IMG/VR virus record: IMGVR_UViG_3300042868_009047
Direction: 5' to 3' (one strand)
DNA: 64,000 nt
Source of the DNA: a virus
Taxonomy: Duplodnaviria > Caudoviricetes
In this document: piece by piece, positions 1 through 28,004 of the stretch
Numbering within the stretch: position 1 is the stretch's first letter
How the letters are laid out: every line of letters starts with the position of its first letter
Translations under genes and position numbers: made by a program
Notes under the pieces: generated by a model
Database searches by the model: none
What the model was told of the DNA's origin: nothing
Seen by the model: only the letters and a program-made list of their open reading frames with translations

Positions 1-2011
1 GCCCCACACTTACTAAAGCACCCGAGCAATCATTGTAATCAAAATATAAATCACCGCCACCTACTTGATAGGTTACAGTATAACTTAAACAACTTAAACC
101 ATCAACACCTGATGTTCCAGAAGATCCATCAACACCCGAAGTTCCAGAAGATCCATCAACACCTGATGTTCCAGAAGATCCAGCCTCACCACTCGTCCCA
201 CTTTCTCCTGAAGTACCAGATGATCCAGTTTCGCCAGAAGTTCCTGATTCACCACTTGTTCCTGAAGAACCAGTTTCGCCAGATGTACCTGAAGATCCGC
301 TTTCTCCAGCTGTACCTGATTCACCAGATGTTCCTGAAGATCCACTTTCTCCAGCTGTTCCTGATTCACCTGAAGTACCAGCTGTTCCTGTTTCTCCGCT
401 TGTTCCTGAAGAACCACTTTCCCCTGATGTTCCAGTTTCACCTGATGTTCCTGAAGAACCAGACTCACCAGATGTTCCAGTTTCACCGCTTGTTCCGCTT
501 TCTCCTGAAGTACCAGAAGATCCACTTTCTCCAGCTGTTCCTGAAGATCCCGATTCACCAGATGTACCCGAAGAACCGCTTTCCCCAGCTGTTCCTGAAA
601 CACCAGAAGTTCCGTTAGTACCATCTACACCAGACAAACCTGAAGATCCGTTTTCTCCTGAAGACCCTGAAGATCCAGATTCACCTGATGTTCCATTATC
701 ACCACTTGTTCCTGAAGATCCTGTTTCACCAGAAGTACCTGAAGAACCGCTTTCTCCAGCTGTACCACTTTCCCCACTTGTTCCTGAAGAACCCGACTCA
801 CCACTTGTTCCTGAAGACCCTGTTTCACCAGAAGTTCCTGAAGAACCAGACTCACCAGATGTTCCAGTTTCACCGCTTGTTCCTGAAGAACCAGTTTCAC
901 CTGAAGTACCAGAAGATCCGCTTTCCCCAGATGTTCCAGTTTCACCGCTTGTTCCTGATTCACCAGAAGTACCAGAAGATCCAGTTTCACCGCTTGTTCC
1001 TGAAGAACCACTTTCTCCAGCTGTTCCTGAAGAACCGCTTTCACCAGAAGTTCCTGAAGATCCAGTTGCCCCACTTGTTCCTGAAGTTCCAGCGACACCG
1101 CCAGTTCCAGCCCCACCAGTACCTGGTACCAATGGCCAACCTAAAAATGCAGCGGTTGTATTACTAATCTTTATATAAACAGGTAATGGATTACTACCTG
1201 GTTTTACATCTGTTACATAATTGGTTGTTGTACCAGTCATGTCATAATATAAGACATCACCAATGGAACCAAGACCAGTTAAACTTAAACCACCAGTAAT
1301 TTTACCGAATGGTCTAACTGTCATGTTACCATCCTCTGGTTCATTAACACTTGTGATTACACCAAAAGCTTTTTCTAATTGGGATTGATTTGTGTCATCA
1401 ACAACTTGAAATTGTCCAGTTGAATCTAAATAAACTAATTGGCTGACTGTATAACCAGTTGCATATAATAAACTTGTATCATCATTATTATAGTAAGAAG
1501 CTATTAAATTTCTATATTGAAATCTTGCGTATAAGTCATTTACCCAATAGTTAATATCTGGTAAATTACTTCTAAGTAATTCAACCGAACTTAATACTGG
1601 ATCACCATCGTCAGATAGGTTAAATAATAAACCATAATTACCATCAATTGGTATGTTATTACCACTTAAAGAAGTATCAGATAATAAATTATATAGACCG
1701 ACATCTTTTAAAACAACATCAATCTCAGTAGCACTTGTTGGTGATGATACACTAATAATTTCGTATGAAAAACCGTTATTCGATTGACCAAACCACATAC
1801 CCGCAACTACTTGGTTGGCATCGTATGTATAAGCATTCGGTGTAATTCTATCATCTGATGTGATAGTTGGTATAACCTCTAATGTTGCGGTAAACGTATA
1901 ACCATACCCATTGTATATACTACTAGGATTTGTATATGTTGTATCAGTAGCAACTGTACCAGACTTAATTCTGGCAACAAATGTTATTGGTAATGTTGAT
2001 AAATTAGCCAT
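1..2011 (-). CDS. Gly-X-Y (SGTSG/SGESG) repeat fibre-like structural protein, partial (runs off the left edge; missing from the ORF track)
   Basis: Manual translation from ATG at 2011 gives MANLSTLPITFVARIKSG..., then about 350 aa of G-S/T-S/E repeats (about 110-1120), then ...GVDGLSCLSYTVTYQVGGGDLYFDYNDCSGALVSVG. The parts translated, including the window edge, are open. Confidence 0.85.
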   Translation of the reverse strand, partial: MANLSTLPITFVARIKSGTVATDTTYTNPSSIYNGYGYTFTATLEVIPTITSDDRITPNAYTYDANQVVAGMWFGQSNNGFSYEIISVSSPTSATEIDVVLKDVGLYNLLSDTSLSGNNIPIDGNYGLLFNLSDDGDPVLSSVELLRSNLPDINYWVNDLYARFQYRNLIASYYNNDDTSLLYATGYTVSQLVYLDSTGQFQVVDDTNQSQLEKAFGVITSVNEPEDGNMTVRPFGKITGGLSLTGLGSIGDVLYYDMTGTTTNYVTDVKPGSNPLPVYIKISNTTAAFLGWPLVPGTGGAGTGGVAGTSGTSGATGSSGTSGESGSSGTAGESGSSGTSGETGSSGTSGESGTSGETGTSGESGSSGTSGETGSSGTSGETGTSGESGSSGTSGETGSSGTSGESGSSGTSGESGTAGESGSSGTSGETGSSGTSGDNGTSGESGSSGSSGENGSSGLSGVDGTNGTSGVSGTAGESGSSGTSGESGSSGTAGESGSSGTSGESGTSGETGTSGESGSSGTSGETGTSGESGSSGTSGETGTAGTSGESGTAGESGSSGTSGESGTAGESGSSGTSGETGSSGTSGESGTSGETGSSGTSGESGTSGEAGSSGTSGVDGSSGTSGVDGSSGTSGVDGLSCLSYTVTYQVGGGDLYFDYNDCSGALVSVG

Positions 2012-2021
2012 TTATTAATTT

Positions 2022-4397
2022 TTATATATAGATGTCGTTAGTTGGTAATTGAAATGTTATATAACCATATGCGGTACCCGTACCATATATACCCATATTT
2101 AATGTAGATAACGATTTAAAGTTCATTGTTGTTTTAGCTGTGTTCTGTACAACCACTGATTGTGATGTCGCTGTACCATGCATCATCCTACTCATGAAAT
2201 CACCAGTACTTAATTGTGCGTGTGTCATAAAGTTAATTGGCCAGACACCTAATGGATGTGTTATTGTTATTTCATTCGCACCGTTTCTTGTAAATATCCA
2301 ACCACCAGAACCTGATGCGATTGTAGCGCCTGAAGGATCTTTAGCTAAAACAAAAGGAGACCCAATCAAACTACCACCACTATATTCTAATTTAATAATA
2401 TAAACACCTGAACCACCCGCTGGTGAAGTACCACTTGTACCAGCGGCACCAGATGTTCCTGATGAACCAATGCCACCATCGGCACCCGCAGTACCAGAAG
2501 AACCGCTTTCCCCAGAAGAACCAGAAGTACCAGGACCACCAGATGTTCCTGAAGAACCAGCTTCACCAGATGTTCCTGAAGAACCAGCTTCACCAGATGT
2601 TCCTGTTAAACCAGATGTTCCTGAAGAGCCTGATTCACCACTTGTTCCTGAAGAACCGCTTTCCCCAGCTGTTCCTGAAGAACCTGATTCACCACTTGTT
2701 CCTGAAGAACCAGAAGTACCAGGGCCACCAGAAGTACCAGCTGAACCAGATGTTCCATTTTCACCGCTTGTTCCTGAAGAACCTGATTCACCGCTTGTTC
2801 CTGAAGATCCAGCTGTTCCTGTTAAACCTGAAGATCCACTTGTTCCTGAAGAACCTGATTCCCCAGAAGATCCAGAAGATCCGCTTTCTCCTGAAGTACC
2901 ACTTGAGCCTGATTCCCCAGAAGATCCAGAAGATCCTGTTGCACCAATTGTACCTTGTAAGTTGCTTGTTGAAGGTGTTACACCACCAGATGTGGCAAAA
3001 ACAATATTTGTTAAAGTAATCTCTAATTGACCAGTAGCTGGGTTATAAGTAATAACCCTACCTTCAGCGTAATTTGAGATATCATATGCTACAACAACCG
3101 ATTCACCAGGCGAATAAGATAAATTAGGTGTTGTTGTTACAGTCATTGGTGTTGGAGTACTTAAAGATGAATAATCAACAGGGGCTAGTACCGAACCCAG
3201 ATATTTATCACTTACACCAGCAGTTCCAGAAGTTCCACCGCCACCATCAGTTCCAGAAGTTCCAGGGCCACCGCTTGTTCCTGATGTTCCAGGTCCACCA
3301 CTTGTTCCTGAAGTACCTGCTGTTCCAGAAGATCCTGATGATCCAGTACTACCACTTGTTCCTGATGAACCAGATGTTCCTGAAGAACCAGCAGATCCTG
3401 AAGATCCATCACCACCAGAAGCACCGTCTAAGTTGATAGTCCAGCTAGTATGTAAACCAGCGCCAACAACTCTTGTTGGGACACCGAATGTTAATAAACC
3501 TATTGTACCGTCATAAGTTATAACTTCACATTCTTGATAATTATTTATATCATATGTAATTACAATTGATTGAGCAGTGGTATAAGCTAACCCAGTACCA
3601 ACTGTTATCGTACCAGGAAGACCTAATGTATGTGATGTTGAGGATGTTGTTTTATATAAATCACCATTGGCACCACTTGTTCCTGTTTCACCTGACGATC
3701 CTGAAGAACCACTTACACCAGCTGTTCCAGTAAAACCTGATGATCCTGAAGAACCAGATTCACCTGATGTTCCCGAAGAACCAGATTCACCTGATGTTCC
3801 CGAAGAACCATCGGGACCTACAACACTTAGACCATCAGCACCCGAAGATCCAGATGAACCAGTAAAACCTGAAGTTCCAGATGAACCAGATGAACCAGAT
3901 GTGCCGTATGATAAACCAGAAGATCCAGCTGAACCAGCTGTTCCAGTTAAACCAGATGTACCTGAAGACCCAGAGTTACCAGATGTTCCTGAAGTACCAG
4001 TACCGCCACCAGCTATTGAACTTAAATCAATATCAACCGTGCTGCCATCAGCAGCTGTGAAGGTTATAATATTTGTACCACTATCAAATTCAGCGTTAAC
4101 AAATTCAGCGCCAGTCCCACCACCACTTCCAGAGATTTTTCTCCAAAGAGTAATAGGTGTACCGTCAACTGTTATTGTTTCAGCGAAATCACCACTATTA
4201 TTATCATAGACAAACGCAGTGTGTGTCTGAAGGCACAAGTATAATGTTGTTGTCCCAGTTACTGTTACGTATGCAAACTGATCAGCCCTGAAGTCTTTTG
4301 CCGACCATTCGACAATCTCAAGGAACTGCATATTTGCATCTAACTCATTATGTGTTAATGGTCTGGATAGATTCGCTCTTAATACTAAATTTGACAT
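2022..4397 (-). CDS. Collagen-like Gly-X-Y Ser/Thr-repeat tail fibre-like protein (791 aa)
   Basis: N-terminal LVLRANLSRPLTHNELDAN resembles phage fibre N-termini. Several (SGTSGESGS)n tracts have Gly at every third residue and are separated by globular modules. Confidence 0.8.
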   Translation of the reverse strand: MSNLVLRANLSRPLTHNELDANMQFLEIVEWSAKDFRADQFAYVTVTGTTTLYLCLQTHTAFVYDNNSGDFAETITVDGTPITLWRKISGSGGGTGAEFVNAEFDSGTNIITFTAADGSTVDIDLSSIAGGGTGTSGTSGNSGSSGTSGLTGTAGSAGSSGLSYGTSGSSGSSGTSGFTGSSGSSGADGLSVVGPDGSSGTSGESGSSGTSGESGSSGSSGFTGTAGVSGSSGSSGETGTSGANGDLYKTTSSTSHTLGLPGTITVGTGLAYTTAQSIVITYDINNYQECEVITYDGTIGLLTFGVPTRVVGAGLHTSWTINLDGASGGDGSSGSAGSSGTSGSSGTSGSTGSSGSSGTAGTSGTSGGPGTSGTSGGPGTSGTDGGGGTSGTAGVSDKYLGSVLAPVDYSSLSTPTPMTVTTTPNLSYSPGESVVVAYDISNYAEGRVITYNPATGQLEITLTNIVFATSGGVTPSTSNLQGTIGATGSSGSSGESGSSGTSGESGSSGSSGESGSSGTSGSSGLTGTAGSSGTSGESGSSGTSGENGTSGSAGTSGGPGTSGSSGTSGESGSSGTAGESGSSGTSGESGSSGTSGLTGTSGEAGSSGTSGEAGSSGTSGGPGTSGSSGESGSSGTAGADGGIGSSGTSGAAGTSGTSPAGGSGVYIIKLEYSGGSLIGSPFVLAKDPSGATIASGSGGWIFTRNGANEITITHPLGVWPINFMTHAQLSTGDFMSRMMHGTATSQSVVVQNTAKTTMNFKSLSTLNMGIYGTGTAYGYITFQLPTNDIYI

Positions 4398-4556: not shown

Positions 4557-5225
4557 TTATTTCTTTGGTTTTCGATTCATGACCGAATCGATCATCCCGT
4601 ATTCCTTGGCTTCATCAGCTCTCATCCAGTAATCCCTTTCAGAATCAGCATATACTTTATCATACTCTTGTCCAGTGTGGTGTGAAATGATATCATACAA
4701 TTCTTTCTTCAATTTACCGATCTCTCTTGCTGTGATTTCAATATCAGTTGCCTGACCTTCAGCACCACCTAATGGTTGGTGAATCATCACTCTTGAGTGC
4801 GGTAATGCGTAACGTTTTCCTTCAGCTCCAGCACAAAGTAATACAGCGGCCATTGATGCGGCTAATCCTGTACATATTGTTGATACCTCTGGTTTAATGT
4901 ATTGCATTGTATCATAGATACCCAAACCAGAATAAACAGAACCACCTGGAGAGTTTATGTAGATCTGAATACCAGCTTCTTTATCGATTGATTCCAAGAA
5001 AAGTAATTGCGCCTGGATAATGTTGGATACTTGATCGTTGATGCCAGTACCCAAAAAGATAACCCTTTCCATCATTAAACGTGAGAATACATCCATCTGT
5101 GTGACGTTCATCTCTCTTTCCTCAATAATATAAGGGGTTATTGAACTGTTAAATCTGATAAGTGTTTCAGATTTAATTCCCATGTGCTTTGTAGCGTACT
5201 GATTAAACTCTTTTCCTAAATTCAT
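4557..5225 (-). CDS. clpP: ATP-dependent Clp protease proteolytic subunit
   Basis: DVFSRLMMERVIFLG, YINSPGGSV, AASMAAVLL (Ser), RVMIHQP (His) and SERDYW (Asp) are all present. The N-terminal extension resembles Bacteroidota ClpP. Confidence 0.97.
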   Translation of the reverse strand: MNLGKEFNQYATKHMGIKSETLIRFNSSITPYIIEEREMNVTQMDVFSRLMMERVIFLGTGINDQVSNIIQAQLLFLESIDKEAGIQIYINSPGGSVYSGLGIYDTMQYIKPEVSTICTGLAASMAAVLLCAGAEGKRYALPHSRVMIHQPLGGAEGQATDIEITAREIGKLKKELYDIISHHTGQEYDKVYADSERDYWMRADEAKEYGMIDSVMNRKPKK

Positions 5226-5276: not shown

Positions 5277-6963
5277 GATTTTTCATGATTGATTTCAAAT
5301 CTTTTTCTGAATACTTTTCTTTAAGTAATCTCTCAAATTCTTTTCTTGAGTAATGAGCTTTTAGACCCACATATTTTGCCTTGTTTTTGTTTTTATTGTA
5401 GTTACGATTAAACTTAGAAAAATGCTGTTTTAAAACACAATTTTTTGTTTCATCAAGGGCTGATAAACTAATCCCTTTATTATAAACACGATCATTCATA
5501 AAGTTCTCATGTACCATTAATCTCATTTTTTCTTTTCTGTGACTTAAGATTATTGTTGCAAATCTTTTATCATCATAATCATGCTCAACTTTCCAAAAAA
5601 TTGATTCTGAGTTTGTCGTGATTCTTTTATTTATGTGTTTGGTAATAGAGCACTTTGACCCTTTTGGTAATTGTTTCTTTAAACGATTTAAAAAAGTTTG
5701 GGACACCGTATACAAACCAGTTCTTTCAACCGCATTTGCTAATGATGATAAAACACCATCAATTGATATTGACCCAAAATACATAATATCAGTATTAATC
5801 TTAACGCAATAAACATCACGTAAAACACGCATTACATTAAGCATGTTTGTGATTGAGTGGATGCAACCATCAAGGTTAACCTCATTAGTATTTTCTATTA
5901 CGGACTTAAAAAAGGTTTTATTTTCAATTAAAATGTCCAAAGGTAATTTTGATGGGTTAAGATAAAAGCCAGTTGTATTATCACGAGAATAAACCAATTT
6001 AAAAAGTTTGCTATTCTTTATTTCATGTGCTGTGTAACCAAGTTTATATAAAACTGTTAAAGCATTTTCATTTATTGTGTAATATATTTCTTTAATATCA
6101 CTGTCTGTTTGTTTTTCACTAAACCAATCACATTTTTCTTCCTTACCTTTATTGTGGTAGTATATGTTGGTGTTTAGTAGTTCCTTATAACCAATTAAGT
6201 TAGCAACAAATTCTTCATCGGTATCAAAATATTTAGCGTAATAAGCATACATGGTTTTACCCCTATAATCCTTCTTATCATCCCTAAAATTTCTTGCGTA
6301 TTCTAAAACACTACAAGCTTCTGGTAAGATTAGGTTAAGTTTTCTAAAGTAATTAAGCATTATAAAAACACTAAAATAATCACTTATTTTTAATCTCTTG
6401 CTATCATCACGAAAAACTTTTTTTAGGTAACCTTCAGTAATAATTTCATTTATCTTTTCGTTATAACCTAAAACACTTAAAGATTTATTAATACCCTCGT
6501 AGATAGCATTTTTATCTATTAAATTAAGATCAAAAATCCCCTCAATAATTGACAGTACTTGAGTCGTAAAAACAGTTTGTCTAATAATTGGTTTTGGTTT
6601 TCTTTTTCTTGTCCCACTTTCTATTTTATACACAGAAAATTCACCTGTTGCCATGTCAATCGCCAAACTAGCGTAGCTCTTATACGTTTTGAGTCTTAAG
6701 GTTTTTAATTTCTTAATTTCAACAGAAGTTTTTCTAACAAAATATTTTTTAAAAATAATTTTATTTTTTTCAGTGTCATGTTCAACAACAAATGTTTCTC
6801 TATGTACATAACAAGGGGTGTTATTTTTCAAAGACTCCTTAAAATGTTCTTCATTGGTTTCTACTAGTTTGGATGACACCCCAAAAATTTCATCACTACC
6901 TAAGGTATCAGGTACCTCAACTTGAAGTTTTTCTACTATTGATCTATGAATTGTATTAACCAT
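5260..6963 (-). CDS. Hypothetical protein (567 aa; start revised from 7047 to 6963)
   Basis: Long ORF. ATG 6963 (MVNTIHRS) follows an A-rich leader and a consensus promoter at 6983-7013, whereas the upstream ORF-track extension runs through a terminator. Confidence 0.8.
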   Translation of the reverse strand: MVNTIHRSIVEKLQVEVPDTLGSDEIFGVSSKLVETNEEHFKESLKNNTPCYVHRETFVVEHDTEKNKIIFKKYFVRKTSVEIKKLKTLRLKTYKSYASLAIDMATGEFSVYKIESGTRKRKPKPIIRQTVFTTQVLSIIEGIFDLNLIDKNAIYEGINKSLSVLGYNEKINEIITEGYLKKVFRDDSKRLKISDYFSVFIMLNYFRKLNLILPEACSVLEYARNFRDDKKDYRGKTMYAYYAKYFDTDEEFVANLIGYKELLNTNIYYHNKGKEEKCDWFSEKQTDSDIKEIYYTINENALTVLYKLGYTAHEIKNSKLFKLVYSRDNTTGFYLNPSKLPLDILIENKTFFKSVIENTNEVNLDGCIHSITNMLNVMRVLRDVYCVKINTDIMYFGSISIDGVLSSLANAVERTGLYTVSQTFLNRLKKQLPKGSKCSITKHINKRITTNSESIFWKVEHDYDDKRFATIILSHRKEKMRLMVHENFMNDRVYNKGISLSALDETKNCVLKQHFSKFNRNYNKNKNKAKYVGLKAHYSRKEFERLLKEKYSEKDLKSIMKNLVYLT

Positions 6964-6982: not shown

Positions 6983-7013
6983 CAAAGATAAACAAAAAAA
7001 CTTAACAAACAAA
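6983..7013 (-). promoter_or_regulatory. Bacteroidota-type sigma-70 promoter
   Basis: TTTG(7013-7010)-N19-TATCTTTG(6990-6983); the -33 element overlaps the terminator T-tract. Confidence 0.75.
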
Positions 7014-7039
7014 AAAAGGTGAGAAAAATCTCACCTTTT
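7011..7039 (-). terminator. Rho-independent terminator closing the DUF2828-RNA unit
   Basis: Perfect 11-bp stem AAAAGGTGAGA/TCTCACCTTTT with a 4-nt loop; 7-T tract on the minus strand. Confidence 0.9.
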
Positions 7040-7046
7040 AAAGTCA

Positions 7047-7218
7047 TGAACGGTATCGGAATCAGGTCCCAGGTTTTAATGTCCCTGTAACATGGTGTTT
7101 TACATTTACGCAGCGTCTCTCGACCTACGGTTTAGTACCCACTCTACACCTTGTGGTGGGGTTTTTTCTGGCTTAGTTGTATATTTGTAAAACTTGCCGA
7201 AAGTATTCCCACCGTTCA
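7047..7218 (-). ncRNA. Candidate structured ncRNA (172 nt) with a paired 5'/3' bulged stem, possibly Y-RNA-like
   Basis: 5' UGAACGGUGGGAAU pairs with 3' AUUCC-GA-UACCGUUCA (14 bp including one G.U, plus a 2-nt bulge). Internal hairpins: CGUAGGUC-GAGA-GAC-G-CUGCG (GNRA loop, U.G wobble), CCCAC...GUGGG, UGUAA...UUACA and ACUU-UCGGC-AAGU. The wobbles and GNRA loop work only on the minus strand. Confidence 0.7.
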
Positions 7219-7224
7219 ATATTT

Positions 7225-8622
7225 TTAAGCTGTTATGCAAGCATAACGTTCGCTATTCACTGTTTTGTTCATGATAGCAACTGGTGTGAAGTCGTCCCCT
7301 GCTAAAAGCGACTTTAAGATCGCTGGAGAGAATCCGCTTACCAGTGCAGTACCGTTTTTACCGAAGCTAACTGGTACGTTATCATGTCTGCTTTGAATGT
7401 TCCAGAACACAATTTTTGGGATTGTGTATCCAGCTTCGCTGTATTTATTTTCAATCATTTTGATAGCCGTTTCATTAGAACGAACAGCTTGATTGAATTC
7501 CATATCTGACATAATCAAGATAGTTGTTGGCATTTCTTCTTGTGGAAGAGAATGTTTAGTAGCTTGATCCAAAATCATTTTGAAAGTAGCTTCAAGATCT
7601 GTACTCATACCCCACTCAGCTCTTTCCAATTGTAGCATTCTGTCAACAATACTACCGTTTAAGTATTGCAACTGTGGGTTTGATGAGAACGTAATGAAAG
7701 CATCTTTAAATTTACCCACGTTTCTTTCAGAGATATATAACCCCAAAGAAACACAAACATCCATACAAGAAAGATTTTGGTTGTTACCTGCTGGAGTGCT
7801 CATCGAACCCGATACATCACACACTGGTAAAATTCTTTCTTCAGTGTTTGTCAAATAGTTTGGAAGTGATTCCCATTGTTTAGTTCCAACAACTTTGTCA
7901 CCACCGTATCTCAACGACTTTAACACATCATATGGGTACAAAGCACCAGCCTTAATTGTTTTTGCGGTGTTTTTGAACTCATCAAATCTAACGCTATCGT
8001 TTTTAACAAACGCTTTAGTGTATCTTGACATAGCCAAAGATGGTACGTGGTTGTAAGTGATTTGTGACCACTGACCAGCACACATCAACTGCTCAACAAC
8101 TTTGGTTTTTTCTACCAATGATTTACGGTATTCTTTTGGGGATAAACCAAGATGTCTTTCCAAAGCAATTGCTTGCTTACCCTTTCTTGGCATCCATTTA
8201 GCACAAAGACCATCGTTGTTGTTTAAAGCAACCTCAATCAATCCCTTAGCTTGTCCTTCCAAAGGAGTACCAAATAATGACAACATGTCATCCCAACGAC
8301 CAAACTCAGGGATATACTGAATATTCTTAGCCAAAGACTCAGAATGATTCTCAGCAAGATATTTAAGGATATCTCTAAATACTTTTCTTTCACCAGCACC
8401 AGAGCGTGCATCTCTAGCCCAAAAAAGAATTCTTAAAGCGGTTACAGGGTTTTCGTTAAAGGCTTTGCTATATTTAGCAATTAACCTGCCGACATCTTGA
8501 CCACGCATTGCACCTATTACAAAGAATAAGTCAACACATGCATTCAAAGATGATGAATTAGTAACCATACCATTTTCTGTGGTGGTATTTTCTGTTCTTA
8601 AAGCGTCAACGAAACGTGTCAT
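7225..8622 (-). CDS. DUF2828-family protein: TROVE/Ro60-like helical region plus C-terminal vWA domain
   Basis: TTTENG..NSSSLNACVDLFF and LRILFWARDARSGAGERKVF in the N-terminal region; MIDAS-like PVCDVSGSM, STDLEATF and ILIMSDMEF in the C-terminal region. Confidence 0.85.
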   Translation of the reverse strand: MTRFVDALRTENTTTENGMVTNSSSLNACVDLFFVIGAMRGQDVGRLIAKYSKAFNENPVTALRILFWARDARSGAGERKVFRDILKYLAENHSESLAKNIQYIPEFGRWDDMLSLFGTPLEGQAKGLIEVALNNNDGLCAKWMPRKGKQAIALERHLGLSPKEYRKSLVEKTKVVEQLMCAGQWSQITYNHVPSLAMSRYTKAFVKNDSVRFDEFKNTAKTIKAGALYPYDVLKSLRYGGDKVVGTKQWESLPNYLTNTEERILPVCDVSGSMSTPAGNNQNLSCMDVCVSLGLYISERNVGKFKDAFITFSSNPQLQYLNGSIVDRMLQLERAEWGMSTDLEATFKMILDQATKHSLPQEEMPTTILIMSDMEFNQAVRSNETAIKMIENKYSEAGYTIPKIVFWNIQSRHDNVPVSFGKNGTALVSGFSPAILKSLLAGDDFTPVAIMNKTVNSERYACITA

Positions 8623-8647
8623 ATTGTTTATTATTTTAAATCTGTTA

Positions 8648-8679
8648 CAAATATAGTAATAGAGTTGTGAAAAACCAAA
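8648..8679 (-). promoter_or_regulatory. Bacteroidota-type sigma-70 promoter for the DUF2828-RNA unit
   Basis: TTTG(8679-8676)-N20-TATATTTG(8655-8648). Confidence 0.8.
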
Positions 8680-10989: not shown

Positions 10990-11565
10990 TTATTTTTTTA
11001 TATAAATAGTAAAATCTTCATTTTCCAAATAACCTTGTATCAATTCTGGTTTTGCGATATGCGATAATCGACTAACCATGTCTTCTGGGTTATATAAATT
11101 TAAAGGTGATAAACCAGACCTCTCATCTAAAAAATTAAAGGCCACACCTTTATTACACATTTTATAAGCCAACTCAATTTTCTCAATAACCTCATTCATC
11201 TCAACAAACCAGGTAAAAACACCTGACCCTATTATATAATCAAAGTTACCTTCAACATCACCTATGTCAGAACATATGAATTTATTTGTTGGGTATAATT
11301 GATTTGCGTAGATAATATACTTGTGGTTAATATCAATTCCTGTGTAATCTATACTGTTATGGTTGTTATTAGCCATATAATCGTTTAAATGACCCAATCC
11401 ACAGCCATAATCAAGCAAAGATGAGTTATCTTCTACCCCAATGTCAAATAAGGCCTTAAATCGCTTCTCTTGCGTTTCTTTGGTTGTCCAACCAACAGCC
11501 ATTGGTGTTGTAATTGGGTAATCCTCAAGATACATGTTGTATACGCCAATAATATCACTGTTCAT
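10990..11565 (-). CDS. Class I SAM-dependent methyltransferase (ATG 11565 preferred over TTG 11595)
   Basis: Motif I LLDYGCGLG, post-I YTGIDIN, and DYIIGSGVF. Confidence 0.9.
   Translation of the reverse strand: MNSDIIGVYNMYLEDYPITTPMAVGWTTKETQEKRFKALFDIGVEDNSSLLDYGCGLGHLNDYMANNNHNSIDYTGIDINHKYIIYANQLYPTNKFICSDIGDVEGNFDYIIGSGVFTWFVEMNEVIEKIELAYKMCNKGVAFNFLDERSGLSPLNLYNPEDMVSRLSHIAKPELIQGYLENEDFTIYIKK
11001..11008 (-). promoter_or_regulatory. Putative late-promoter motif TATTTATA
   Basis: 13 nt upstream of ATG 10988, inside the 3' end of the methyltransferase gene. Confidence 0.4.
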
Positions 11566-11899
11566 CTGGTAATTTTGATTCAATGTATAATTCAATAATG
11601 TTTATGTAATAAACAACCCCTGATATAAATGCCGCATCAAAGATAGTAAAAAGAATCTTATCCAACAAACTTAAATTTATTTTACCGAAAAGAATAACTG
11701 TTGGTGAAAACCCTAAAACTGGTACAACAAATAAACCAACCCAAAAACCAAAACACATCATACAACTTAATAAAGAACCCAAAAAAACCGATTTGGCTTT
11801 TATGGTTTCTCTAAATGGTTTAAATAACTTGCTTTGCACAACAATTGATGTTAGACCATAGGATATGAAAATAAAGTATACGAGGGTTATCCAATTCAT
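11555..11899 (-). CDS. Small membrane protein, DUF1360-like
   Basis: Three hydrophobic segments and the motif LLSCMMCFGFWVG (CxxC...W). Confidence 0.7.
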   Translation of the reverse strand: MNWITLVYFIFISYGLTSIVVQSKLFKPFRETIKAKSVFLGSLLSCMMCFGFWVGLFVVPVLGFSPTVILFGKINLSLLDKILFTIFDAAFISGVVYYINIIELYIESKLPDEQ

Positions 11900-27972: not shown

Positions 27973-28004
27973 CAAATATAGGAAATTATTCTTTTACAAA
28001 CAAA
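27973..28004 (-). promoter_or_regulatory. Bacteroidota-type sigma-70 promoter for primase
   Basis: TTTG(28004-28001)-N20-TATATTTG(27980-27973). Confidence 0.75.

What the first reader, a model, noticed from the sequence alone, without database searches (positions are those of the whole stretch)
7011..8679. Candidate Ro60/Y-RNA-like ribonucleoprotein: DUF2828 (TROVE-like vWA) gene plus a 172-nt structured RNA in one transcription unit
Seen: consensus promoter (8648-8679), then the DUF2828 gene, then a GC-richer non-coding 172-nt segment starting 6 nt after the stop, then a perfect terminator, then a fresh promoter for the next gene. The segment's two ends pair (UGAACGGUGGGAAU with AUUCC-GA-UACCGUUCA: 14 bp, one G.U, 2-nt bulge) and enclose a GNRA-capped hairpin and other stems. 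G.U pairs and the GNRA loop fix the orientation as co-transcribed with the gene. Established: Ro60/Rsr proteins (helical TROVE ring plus vWA) bind Y RNAs through a bulged 5'/3' terminal stem, and bacterial Y RNA genes usually sit beside rsr. I know of no RNA partner described for DUF2828. Inference: this is a phage DUF2828-ncRNA RNP, possibly an RNA quality-control, decoy or anti-defence complex. Caveats: there is no tRNA-like T-arm, and the metazoan GGUCCGA site is absent from the 5' arm (UCCGA occurs on the 3' arm). A 6S-like RNA or a structured 3' UTR are alternatives.
Basis: partly seen in the sequence, partly recalled or inferred. Interest (0 to 1): 0.85.

Follow-up and report, generated by a model that had tools for sequence, protein, structure and literature searches.

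The report
Partner RNA of phage Ro60-like protein
A lake-water phage encodes a ring-shaped protein with the fold of the Ro60 autoantigen, followed by a conserved 172-nt folded RNA; this RNA belongs to a widespread RNA family, which I found neither in Rfam nor in the papers searched, that travels with this protein in very different phages and is most likely its "Y RNA" partner.

Summary
Gene 7225-8622(-) is DUF2828+DUF7788. The 172-nt segment 7047-7218(-) follows it, then a terminator. Bacteroidetes-type promoter motifs flank the unit. The protein model matches only Ro60 structures over its full length (Thermus phage phiLo Ro60, Rsr, frog and human Ro60), although the Pfam TROVE model does not hit it.

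The RNA is conserved in 12 related loci. Its bulged terminal stem is paired in 182 of 182 cells, and 7 of 14 pairs show compensatory changes. Invariant parts are UGGGAAU, C(A/G)GCAA and AUUCC-GA. This is a long variant of a general module: stem, about 3 nt, CAGCAA, variable core, stem, G.

A covariance model of that module gave 54 hits in 472 kb of DUF2828 loci, all on the gene strand and downstream. It gave none in 717 kb of control contigs and none in T4, T5, SPO1 or the TROVE-Ro60 phages Bxz1 and CcrColossus. Some copies, one in this genome's tRNA cluster, carry a YrlA-like permuted tRNA core.

Best reading: a Y-RNA-like partner of a divergent Ro60. Binding and function are untested. No Rfam family or paper describing it was found. 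This scan has noted the same family before on other DNA.

The parts
8648..8679 (-). Promoter-like site of Bacteroidetes type (TTTG-N20-TATATTTG) upstream of the Ro60-like gene
   Evidence: Pattern match, (13 matches in the window against 6.2 expected). The sigma-70 scan does not find it. Function is inferred.
7225..8622 (-). Ro60-like protein gene (DUF2828 N-terminal helical-repeat part plus DUF7788 vWA domain with intact MIDAS), 465 aa
   Evidence: Pfam. AlphaFold model pLDDT 79. Foldseek top hits are all Ro60: 9kop/9l5y E 3.5e-9 with TM 0.58-0.60, then 2nvo, 1yvp, 9nen. Swiss-Prot Ro60s rank top. D269, S271, S273, T341 and D373 are invariant.
7047..7218 (-). 172-nt structured RNA, long variant of the CAGCAA-handle (Y-like) RNA family
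   Evidence: Fold z = -3.0. Conserved in 12 related loci with covarying stems. No Rfam match.
7205..7218 (-). 5' arm of the terminal stem (UGAACGGU-G-GGAAU); the outer 7 pairs covary and the inner GGAAU is invariant
   Evidence: 182 of 182 cells paired, 7 of 14 pairs with compensatory changes.
7194..7199 (-). CGGCAA, this clade's variant of the family's invariant single-stranded CAGCAA motif; it lies 5 nt after the 5' arm
   Evidence: Alignment A2: C, GCAA invariant; second base G in 6 sequences and A in 7. The short-module consensus is CAGCAA at 96-100%.
7138..7161 (-). Internal hairpin 1
   Evidence: RNAalifold on the 6 closest relatives.
7109..7130 (-). Internal hairpin 2 (GAGA loop here; stem sequence fully replaced but still paired in relative L224)
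7070..7087 (-). Internal hairpin 3 with conserved loop CAUUAAAA; the stem covaries (CAGG/CCUG to CGGG/CCCG, and GAAUC/GAUUC to GAAUG/CAUUC in the sister clade)
7047..7062 (-). 3' arm AUUCC-GA-UACCGUUCA, with the invariant AUUCCGA and the bulged GA
   Evidence: A G directly after the 3' arm is 99% conserved in the short modules.
7014..7039 (-). Intrinsic terminator (11-bp stem, T run) closing the unit
   Evidence: A terminator is present at the same place in relatives.
6983..7013 (-). Promoter-like site (TTTG...TATCTTTG) of the next gene (ATG at 6963)
   Evidence: TATCTTTGC is conserved in relatives.

Best explanation
The gene encodes a divergent Ro60: a helical-repeat ring closed by a vWA/MIDAS domain. 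The 172-nt RNA behind it is its Y-RNA-like partner.

The protein is proposed to recognise the conserved "handle". This is the basal stem, the single-stranded C(A/G)GCAA just 3' of the 5' arm, and the conserved G (here the bulged GA) after the 3' arm. The handle takes the place of the GNCGAA/GGUCCGA site of canonical Y RNAs. The variable core of each RNA would act as the effector or tether module. In this RNA the core is three hairpins; in sister RNAs it is a permuted tRNA mimic. By analogy with Rsr-Y RNA-PNPase and phiLo Ro60-Yrl-PNPase, the core could recruit or sequester host RNA enzymes.

The unit is probably transcribed from the promoter at 8648-8679 through the gene and RNA to the terminator, after which the RNA is cut out. 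In phages the particle most likely protects phage or host RNA metabolism, or counters a host defence.

Shown here: the fold, the conserved covarying RNA, and the genomic association. Inferred: binding, processing and biological role.
For: Protein fold. The top 13 PDB hits are all Ro60 over the full length, led by phiLo Ro60 at E 3.5e-9 and TM 0.58-0.60. The top 5 Swiss-Prot models are Ro60, followed by telomerase p80. A sequence profile weakly finds the phiLo TROVE protein (E 0.003). The MIDAS residues are invariant.

The RNA is real. The terminal stem is 100% paired in 13 sequences aligned by MAFFT, 7 of 14 pairs are compensatory, and slid controls reach 26-49%. The inner hairpins covary.

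Family link. Relatives at the same position carry CAGCAA, and four of them also carry a short module scored by R2 at E 1e-7 to 1e-9.

Association. R1 gave 54 hits in 47 of 78 DUF2828 loci, all on the gene strand and downstream, against 0 in 717 kb of control contigs. Stem pairing is 97.9% against 61% when shuffled. Modules are found in Felix O1, A511, Faith1, Los1, FADO, S-CoN_Ph1, phiSHEF16, GAP32 and phi-ST2. In whole genomes, hits lie only beside the gene. There are none in T4, T5, SPO1, Bxz1 or CcrColossus, which lack DUF2828 even though two of them have TROVE Ro60.

Y-RNA character. Long modules in six phage lineages enclose a T arm, a closed acceptor hairpin and a D arm. The copy in this genome's tRNA cluster matches Rfam YrlA at 38 bits, E 3.4e-7, in a genome record that holds DUF2828 but no TROVE gene.

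Against: No binding, expression-end or processing data exist.

The short-module model R2 does not score the window RNA: 8.4 bits on the GCAA stretch only. Its family membership therefore rests on homologous position and shared handle features. Its motif is CGGCAA with a 5-nt linker, not UUA-CAGCAA.

In some genomes the RNAs lie far from the gene, about 200 kb in GAP32. About 40% of the loci gave no R1 hit within 2.5 kb.

Many copies sit in tRNA clusters, which could by itself explain part of the co-localisation.

Pfam TROVE does not match the protein.

The association counts include loci that supplied model seeds, and many loci are related to one another.
Confidence: 0.75

Rival explanations
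1. The RNAs are independent small RNAs of phage tRNA operons, such as tRNA-like decoys, processing spacers or regulators. They co-localise with DUF2828 only because both belong to the same RNA-metabolism island, and the protein does not bind them.
For: Many copies lie between tRNA genes (Felix O1, FADO, GAP32, this genome). Some carry tRNA-like cores. In GAP32 they are about 200 kb from the gene.
Against: tRNA-rich phages without DUF2828 (T4, T5, Bxz1) have none. In the window, Faith1 and S-CoN_Ph1 the RNAs abut the gene with no tRNA cluster there. The strict same-strand, immediately-downstream arrangement in 47 loci mirrors rsr/Y RNA loci. A Ro60 fold implies a Y-type RNA ligand.
Confidence: 0.13
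2. The 172-nt segment is a cis-acting 3' UTR element of the DUF2828 mRNA (stabiliser, processing or translational control site) rather than a trans-acting partner RNA.
For: It starts 6 nt after the stop and shares the terminator. No separate promoter motif lies before it.
Against: Family members occur upstream of the gene (A511, Los1, L010, L012), in tandem arrays of 2-4, between tRNAs, or kilobases away. That does not fit a 3' UTR role. The conserved single-stranded motif with a variable core is typical of a protein-bound small RNA.
Confidence: 0.08
3. The conserved feature acts at the DNA level (origin, recombination or packaging site, or promoter/terminator array).
For: Short inverted repeats with an A/T-rich centre could serve DNA-binding proteins.
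Against: All 54 CM hits are on the gene strand. G.U pairs (12 of 13 at one position of the window-type stem) would be C.A mismatches on the other strand. Compensatory changes preserve pairing rather than sequence. tRNA-like cores are embedded in some copies.
Confidence: 0.02

Closest known systems
Bacterial and phage Ro60 (Rsr) with Y RNAs of the YrlA/YrlB type (Chen et al. 2014, PMC4201824; Rfam RF02553), including Thermus phage phiLo Ro60 with Yrl1/Yrl2 (PMC12135203; PDB 9KOP, 9L5Y)
   Same: A ring plus vWA/MIDAS protein fold. One or more small RNA genes lie beside the protein gene on the same strand. Each RNA has a 5'/3' terminal, often bulged, stem, a conserved purine-rich motif on the 5' strand, and a variable effector core that in some copies is a permuted tRNA mimic (T arm, closed acceptor stem, D arm).
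   Different: The protein is not recognised by Pfam TROVE and has 10-18% identity to Ro60 structures. The handle motif is C(A/G)GCAA, not GNCGAA/GGUCCGA. The YrlA model matches only the tRNA-like core of one sister RNA (38 bits, gathering score 69) and not the window RNA. TROVE-Ro60 phages (Bxz1, CcrColossus) lack the CAGCAA module.
[not shown]
   Same: It is described as a Ro60-like protein directly upstream of the phage's tRNA genes, which is the layout I saw for the DUF2828 gene of Felix O1. The authors guessed that some neighbouring 'tRNAs' might be Y RNAs.
   Different: No partner RNA was identified there. I did not test that gp130 is a DUF2828 homolog. In Felix O1, of the same genus, the candidate partners are not the tRNAs but four unannotated modules between them. 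The window phage is unrelated (lake water, Bacteroidetes-type promoters) and has a long RNA variant directly behind the gene.
Dictyostelium Class I RNAs (Rfam RF01414; Kjellin et al. 2021, PMC7919456)
   Same: The short phage modules share the architecture described for Class I RNAs: about 60 nt, a short stem joining the ends, a conserved motif next to the 5' arm, and a variable remainder. They also share the Rfam consensus letters CUUACAGCAA and the 3' end ...C(U)G. RF01414 is the only or best non-YrlA Rfam match on two short modules.
   Different: Scores are far below the gathering score (17.1 and 20.4 bits against 41.5; E 1.6 and 0.15). The window RNA itself is three times longer and has CGGCAA. 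Class I RNAs are reported as unique to dictyostelids and bind the RRM protein Rnp1A. Whether dictyostelids have a DUF2828 protein was not tested.

Membership tests
Ro60 / TROVE proteins | Sequence match to Pfam TROVE (PF05731) | tested here: not met
   There is no TROVE hit on the protein or anywhere in the genome record, while the search's own control genomes ring.
Ro60 / TROVE proteins | Full-length fold: helical-repeat ring closed by a C-terminal vWA domain | tested here: met
   Model pLDDT 79. The top 13 PDB matches are all Ro60, with TM up to 0.60. Swiss-Prot Ro60s and telomerase p80 rank top.
Ro60 / TROVE proteins | MIDAS motif (DxSxS...T...D) in the vWA domain | tested here: met
   D269, S271, S273, T341 and D373 are invariant in 26 homologs. 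A profile aligns vdvsGSM with the phiLo protein.
Ro60 / TROVE proteins | Binds Y RNA on the outer surface and single-stranded RNA ends in the central hole | not testable with these tools
   Needs EMSA, CLIP or a structure.
Y RNA / YrlA (Rfam RF00019, RF02553) | Covariance-model match at the gathering score | tested here: not met
   The window RNA has no match even at E <= 10. A sister RNA in the same genome reaches 38 bits against a gathering score of 69, on the tRNA-like core only.
Y RNA / YrlA (Rfam RF00019, RF02553) | 5' and 3' ends form a long, bulged stem that is conserved | tested here: met
   14 bp with a GA bulge, 182 of 182 cells paired, 7 compensatory pairs.
Y RNA / YrlA (Rfam RF00019, RF02553) | Ro-binding motif GNCGAAN0-1G / GGUCCGA on the 5' strand (Chen et al. 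2014) | tested here: not met
   The 5' strand carries UGGGAAU...C(A/G)GCAA instead. UCCGA lies on the 3' arm.
Y RNA / YrlA (Rfam RF00019, RF02553) | Encoded beside the Ro gene | tested here: met
   It starts 6 nt after the stop codon on the same strand, and this is conserved in 12 related loci.
Y RNA / YrlA (Rfam RF00019, RF02553) | tRNA-like domain (T and D arms) | tested here: not met
   None in the window RNA. Present in sister modules.
   R2 gives only 8.4 bits, because of the 130-nt core, the CGGCAA variant and the 5-nt linker. However, positional homologs carry CAGCAA (7 of 13). The GG-start stem and the G after the 3' arm match the consensus. Short modules scored by R2 sit next to the long RNA in four relatives.
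Dictyostelium Class I RNA (RF01414) | Covariance-model match at the gathering score (41.5 bits) | tested here: not met
   17.1 and 20.4 bits on short phage modules. No match on the window RNA.

The most novel reading that the evidence does not exclude
The stem + UUACAGCAA + 3' G handle may be an ancient recognition element for DUF2828-type Ro60-like proteins, shared between phages and eukaryotes. On this reading the 'Class I' RNAs of dictyostelid amoebae, reported as unique to that group, would be Y-like partner RNAs of such a protein, or descend from a viral RNP.
Probability: 0.08. Interest if true: 0.9.

Novelty: new variant of a known kind. Interest (0 to 1): 0.8.

Why it matters
Ro60-Y RNA particles are known from animals, about 5% of bacteria and a few phages with canonical TROVE proteins. 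Here a much larger, sequence-divergent branch gets a concrete candidate RNA partner. That branch is DUF2828: 710 phage records and thousands of metagenomic proteins. The candidate partner has a defined, testable recognition handle.

This would turn a common "hypothetical / RNA-binding" phage gene, together with many unannotated or mis-annotated spacers in phage tRNA clusters, into one RNP system. It gives the reported anti-Ppl activity of the Ro60-like Bas63 gp130 a possible RNA component to test. It also offers a natural set of swappable effector cores (tRNA mimics, multi-hairpin cores, unstructured A-rich loops) on one handle.

Tried and rejected
- **Rfam.** The whole window at gathering scores, and the region at E <= 10, gave only chance matches to the terminator. 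Neither 6S nor Y RNA appears.
- **Sequence search of PDB with the single protein.** Nothing found.
- **DNA pattern TGGGAATANTTNCNGCAA in viral contigs.** 118 stretches matched, which is about the chance expectation. Only 3 were real relatives once the 3' partner was required.
- **Short-module model on the window.** No significant hit anywhere in the 64 kb or on the RNA itself.
- **YrlA search in 10 further loci with long modules.** No hit at E <= 0.01, although a regex for T and D loops later found tRNA-like cores.
- **Long-range helix.** I tested pairing between the bases after CAGCAA and a UUAAR element before the 3' arm. Observed pairing equals shuffled, so I dropped the idea.
- **Expression.** I therefore have no laid reads, ends or strand. 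The index alone shows lake-water metatranscriptome assemblies holding 35-82% of the RNA's 17 sampled words, which I do not count as proof of expression.
- **PHROGs on neighbouring genes.** Tail fibres, one tRNA-methyltransferase-like hit and otherwise unknowns; no RNA-repair context. There is no RtcB in the genome record.
- **Complex prediction.** Not used: it scores protein partners only.
Full report
**What is at the site.** On the minus strand the window holds a 465-aa ORF (7225-8622) that matches Pfam DUF2828 in its N-terminal part and DUF7788 in its C-terminal part. Six bases after its TAA stop begins a 172-nt non-coding stretch (7218 down to 7047). After that come an 11-bp/T-run terminator (7039-7014) and the next gene (ATG at 6963). 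The whole segment folds at -50.5 kcal/mol, z = -3.0 against dinucleotide shuffles. Both fit the Bacteroidetes-type pattern TTTG-N17-22-TAnnTTTG (the consensus is from my own knowledge), which is enriched in the window: 13 matches against 6.2 +/- 2.2 expected. The window is part of a 166-kb IMG/VR virus record estimated at 56% complete, and the DNA is found in lake-water metagenomes.

**The protein.** Single-sequence search of PDB finds nothing, and Pfam TROVE does not match. An AlphaFold model built on 26 homologs has pLDDT 79. Its 13 best PDB matches are all Ro60 proteins aligned over the full length. They are Thermus phage phiLo Ro60 (9KOP/9L5Y, E 3.5e-9, TM 0.58-0.60), D. radiodurans Rsr, Xenopus Ro60 and human Ro60; isolated vWA domains follow only after these. 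In Swiss-Prot models the top five are Ro60s, then telomerase p80, another TROVE protein. A sequence profile of the family weakly finds the phiLo TROVE protein at the MIDAS strand (E 0.003). The MIDAS residues D269, S271, S273, T341 and D373 are invariant. So the protein has the Ro60 architecture but is not a sequence-level TROVE member. The family is large: 710 phage records and more than 7,700 metagenomic proteins among the 8,000 candidates scored. Some records already call it "Ro-like RNA binding protein".

**The RNA is conserved and covaries.** I fetched relatives of the gene from viral contigs and metagenome assemblies and read their downstream spacers. Twelve non-identical loci, with protein identity from 65% to 94%, carry a homologous RNA at the same place. 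In a plain MAFFT alignment (A2) the invariant letters are UGGGAAU, U..C.GCAA, a UUAAAA/UUAAGA element, AC and AUUCCGA. The 14-bp terminal stem is paired in 182 of 182 cells. Seven pairs show changes on both sides. Slid controls reach 26-49%, and no shuffle reaches the observed covariation score. A G.U pair kept in 12 of 13 sequences fixes the strand. Inside, three hairpins are supported by compensatory changes within the two sub-clades. One hairpin has a stem sequence that is entirely replaced but still paired.

**A general module.** While reading the spacers I noticed that nearly every locus holds one to four copies of a simpler unit on the gene strand. The unit is a 6-9-bp stem, 2-4 nt (usually UUA), CAGCAA, a variable core, the 3' arm and a G. 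The cores are often A-rich, about 40 nt long and sometimes carry extra GCAA repeats. The window RNA is a long version of this unit. Its inner stem is GGAAU/AUUCC, its linker is 5 nt, its motif is CGGCAA, and a G follows the 3' arm. Here that G is the first base of the GA bulge, because the helix continues below it. In the sister clade the motif is CAGCAA (7 of 13 sequences), and a short module follows the long RNA directly.

**Association with the gene.** I built covariance models of the short module: R1 from 35 seeds and R2 from 69 matches.
- R1 gave 54 matches at E <= 0.01 in 472 kb around 78 DUF2828 genes. The matches lie in 47 loci, all on the gene strand and all downstream of the gene.
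- R1 gave none in 717 kb of unrelated viral contigs.
- On the model-fitted alignment the stem is 97.9% paired, against 61% when shuffled, and six of seven pairs change on both sides. That alignment leans towards the structure, so the MAFFT result above is the cleaner test.

The module occurs beside the gene in a wide range of phages:
- Felix O1: four copies between tRNA genes.
- Listeria A511 and Campylobacter Los1: upstream of the gene.
- Mycobacteriophage Faith1.
- Bacillus FADO.
- Staphylococcus S-CoN_Ph1: three tandem copies, none of them seeds.
- Enterococcus phiSHEF16.
- GAP32 and Vibrio phi-ST2: elsewhere in the genome.

In the whole genomes of Felix O1, Faith1 and S-CoN_Ph1 the only matches are those next to the gene. 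T4, T5, SPO1 and the canonical TROVE-Ro60 phages Bxz1 and CcrColossus have no DUF2828 and no match. The handle therefore tracks DUF2828, not tRNA clusters and not canonical Ro60.

**Link to Y RNAs.** The window's own genome has three more modules in a tRNA cluster about 17 kb away, outside the window. The middle one encloses a T arm, a closed acceptor-like hairpin and a D arm in permuted order. Rfam's YrlA model matches that core at 38 bits (E 3.4e-7 in a 251-nt search, below the gathering score of 69) but does not match its stem. A simple scan finds the same design in long modules of Felix O1, Faith1, Cronobacter S13, phiSHEF16, phiN3 and GAP32. Chen et al. 2014 (PMC4201824) describe YrlA as a Ro-binding terminal stem with a 5'-strand motif GNCGAA plus a tRNA-like domain, found next to TROVE genes. 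The RNAs here have the same layout with a different handle. The genome record holds one DUF2828 gene and no TROVE gene.

**Literature and databases.** Rfam 15 has no family for the handle. Full-text searches for DUF2828, Ro-like and phage Y RNA found no description of an RNA partner. The nearest statements come from two papers. The PhageMaP preprint reports Bas63 gp130 as Ro60-like, needed against Ppl, and with neighbouring tRNAs "possibly Y RNAs". The phiLo Ro60-Yrl1/2-PNPase work concerns a canonical TROVE protein.

After finding the family myself, I consulted the scan's notes. The same family has been reported many times on other DNA, and those notes pointed me to Dictyostelium Class I RNAs. 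I tested that lead. RF01414 is the only Rfam match on one short module and the second-best, after YrlA, in a region holding another, and its consensus reads stem-CUUACAGCAA...CUG. The scores are 17 and 20 bits against a gathering score of 41.5. Kjellin et al. report the class as dictyostelid-specific. I treat this as a resemblance, not membership.

**Mechanism and limits.** The most economical reading is a Ro60/Y-RNA-type particle. The protein would bind the handle, and the variable core would engage other factors. The unit in this window would be transcribed from 8648-8679 to the terminator, and the RNA then released. None of the binding, processing or function steps is shown.

The window RNA is not scored by the short-module model. 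Its assignment to the family therefore rests on positional homology and handle features. Expression evidence is limited to index hits in lake metatranscriptome assemblies, because the one read-laying run was lost to a filter.

Rival readings are listed with their tests: an independent small RNA of tRNA operons, a cis-acting 3' UTR element, and a DNA-level site. The strand bias, the G.U pairs, the variable position relative to the gene and the negative controls argue against them.

Noticed in passing
outside the window: own genome G000:C1:32407-33595(-), locus L244: A tRNA cluster of at least 8 tRNAs holds three more handle RNAs. There are two short ones (one with CAGCAC instead of CAGCAA), each directly followed by a tRNA gene. 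The third is about 115 nt long and its core matches Rfam YrlA (38 bits). It also contains an anticodon-arm-like hairpin.
   Followed up: partly
L244:1718-2359(-) (own genome, outside the window): A 213-aa ORF sits inside the tRNA cluster between the RNA modules, where T4 has the homing endonuclease segB. Its family was not examined.
   Followed up: no
window 6983-7013, 8648-8679, 11638-11669, 27973-28004 and others (-): The Bacteroidetes-type promoter pattern TTTG-N17-22-TAnnTTTG is enriched (13 against 6.2 expected). Together with 25-30% GC spacers and the lake-water origin, this suggests a Bacteroidota (for example flavobacterial) host.
   Followed up: partly
L024:4396-4788 (Cronobacter phage S13, KC954775): The annotated 121-nt 'tRNA-Ser' and 113-nt 'tRNA-OTHER' overlap two CAGCA(A/C)-handle modules with permuted tRNA cores. 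The odd long tRNAs look like mis-calls across neighbouring permuted units.
   Followed up: partly
L238:4519-4866 (Staphylococcus phage S-CoN_Ph1): Two tiny annotated 'hypothetical protein' CDSs (30 and 43 codons) lie over or abut three tandem handle RNAs scored at E 1e-8 to 5e-5. They are probably not genes.
   Followed up: partly
L232:2982-3368 and the relatives: In the sister clade an HSP20 gene is inserted between the RNA pair and the conserved ~560-aa downstream gene. The flanking gene order (118-aa, ~100-aa, DUF2828, RNA, ~560-aa protein of no known family) is otherwise conserved.
   Followed up: no
L257:1909-2172 (phage T4 rnaC, rnaD): T4's stable RNA species 1 ends with a perfect T-arm-like CCGGGUUCGAAUCCCGG, but T4 has neither DUF2828 nor any R2 match. 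These classic unexplained RNAs are not members of this family by the model.
   Followed up: partly
window 10990-11595(-) and 4557-5225(-): A tRNA-methyltransferase-like ORF (PHROG 4752, E 3e-9) and a ClpP protease gene lie within 4 kb of the Ro60-like gene. Two large collagen-like tail-fibre genes occupy 2-4397.
   Followed up: no
short modules, e.g. L038:3947-4007, L068:2082-2143, L104:3929-3990: Many short modules carry two further (A)AGCAA repeats in their A-rich loop (24 of 69 have two or three GCAA). This hints at multiple binding sites or a sponge-like role.
   Followed up: partly
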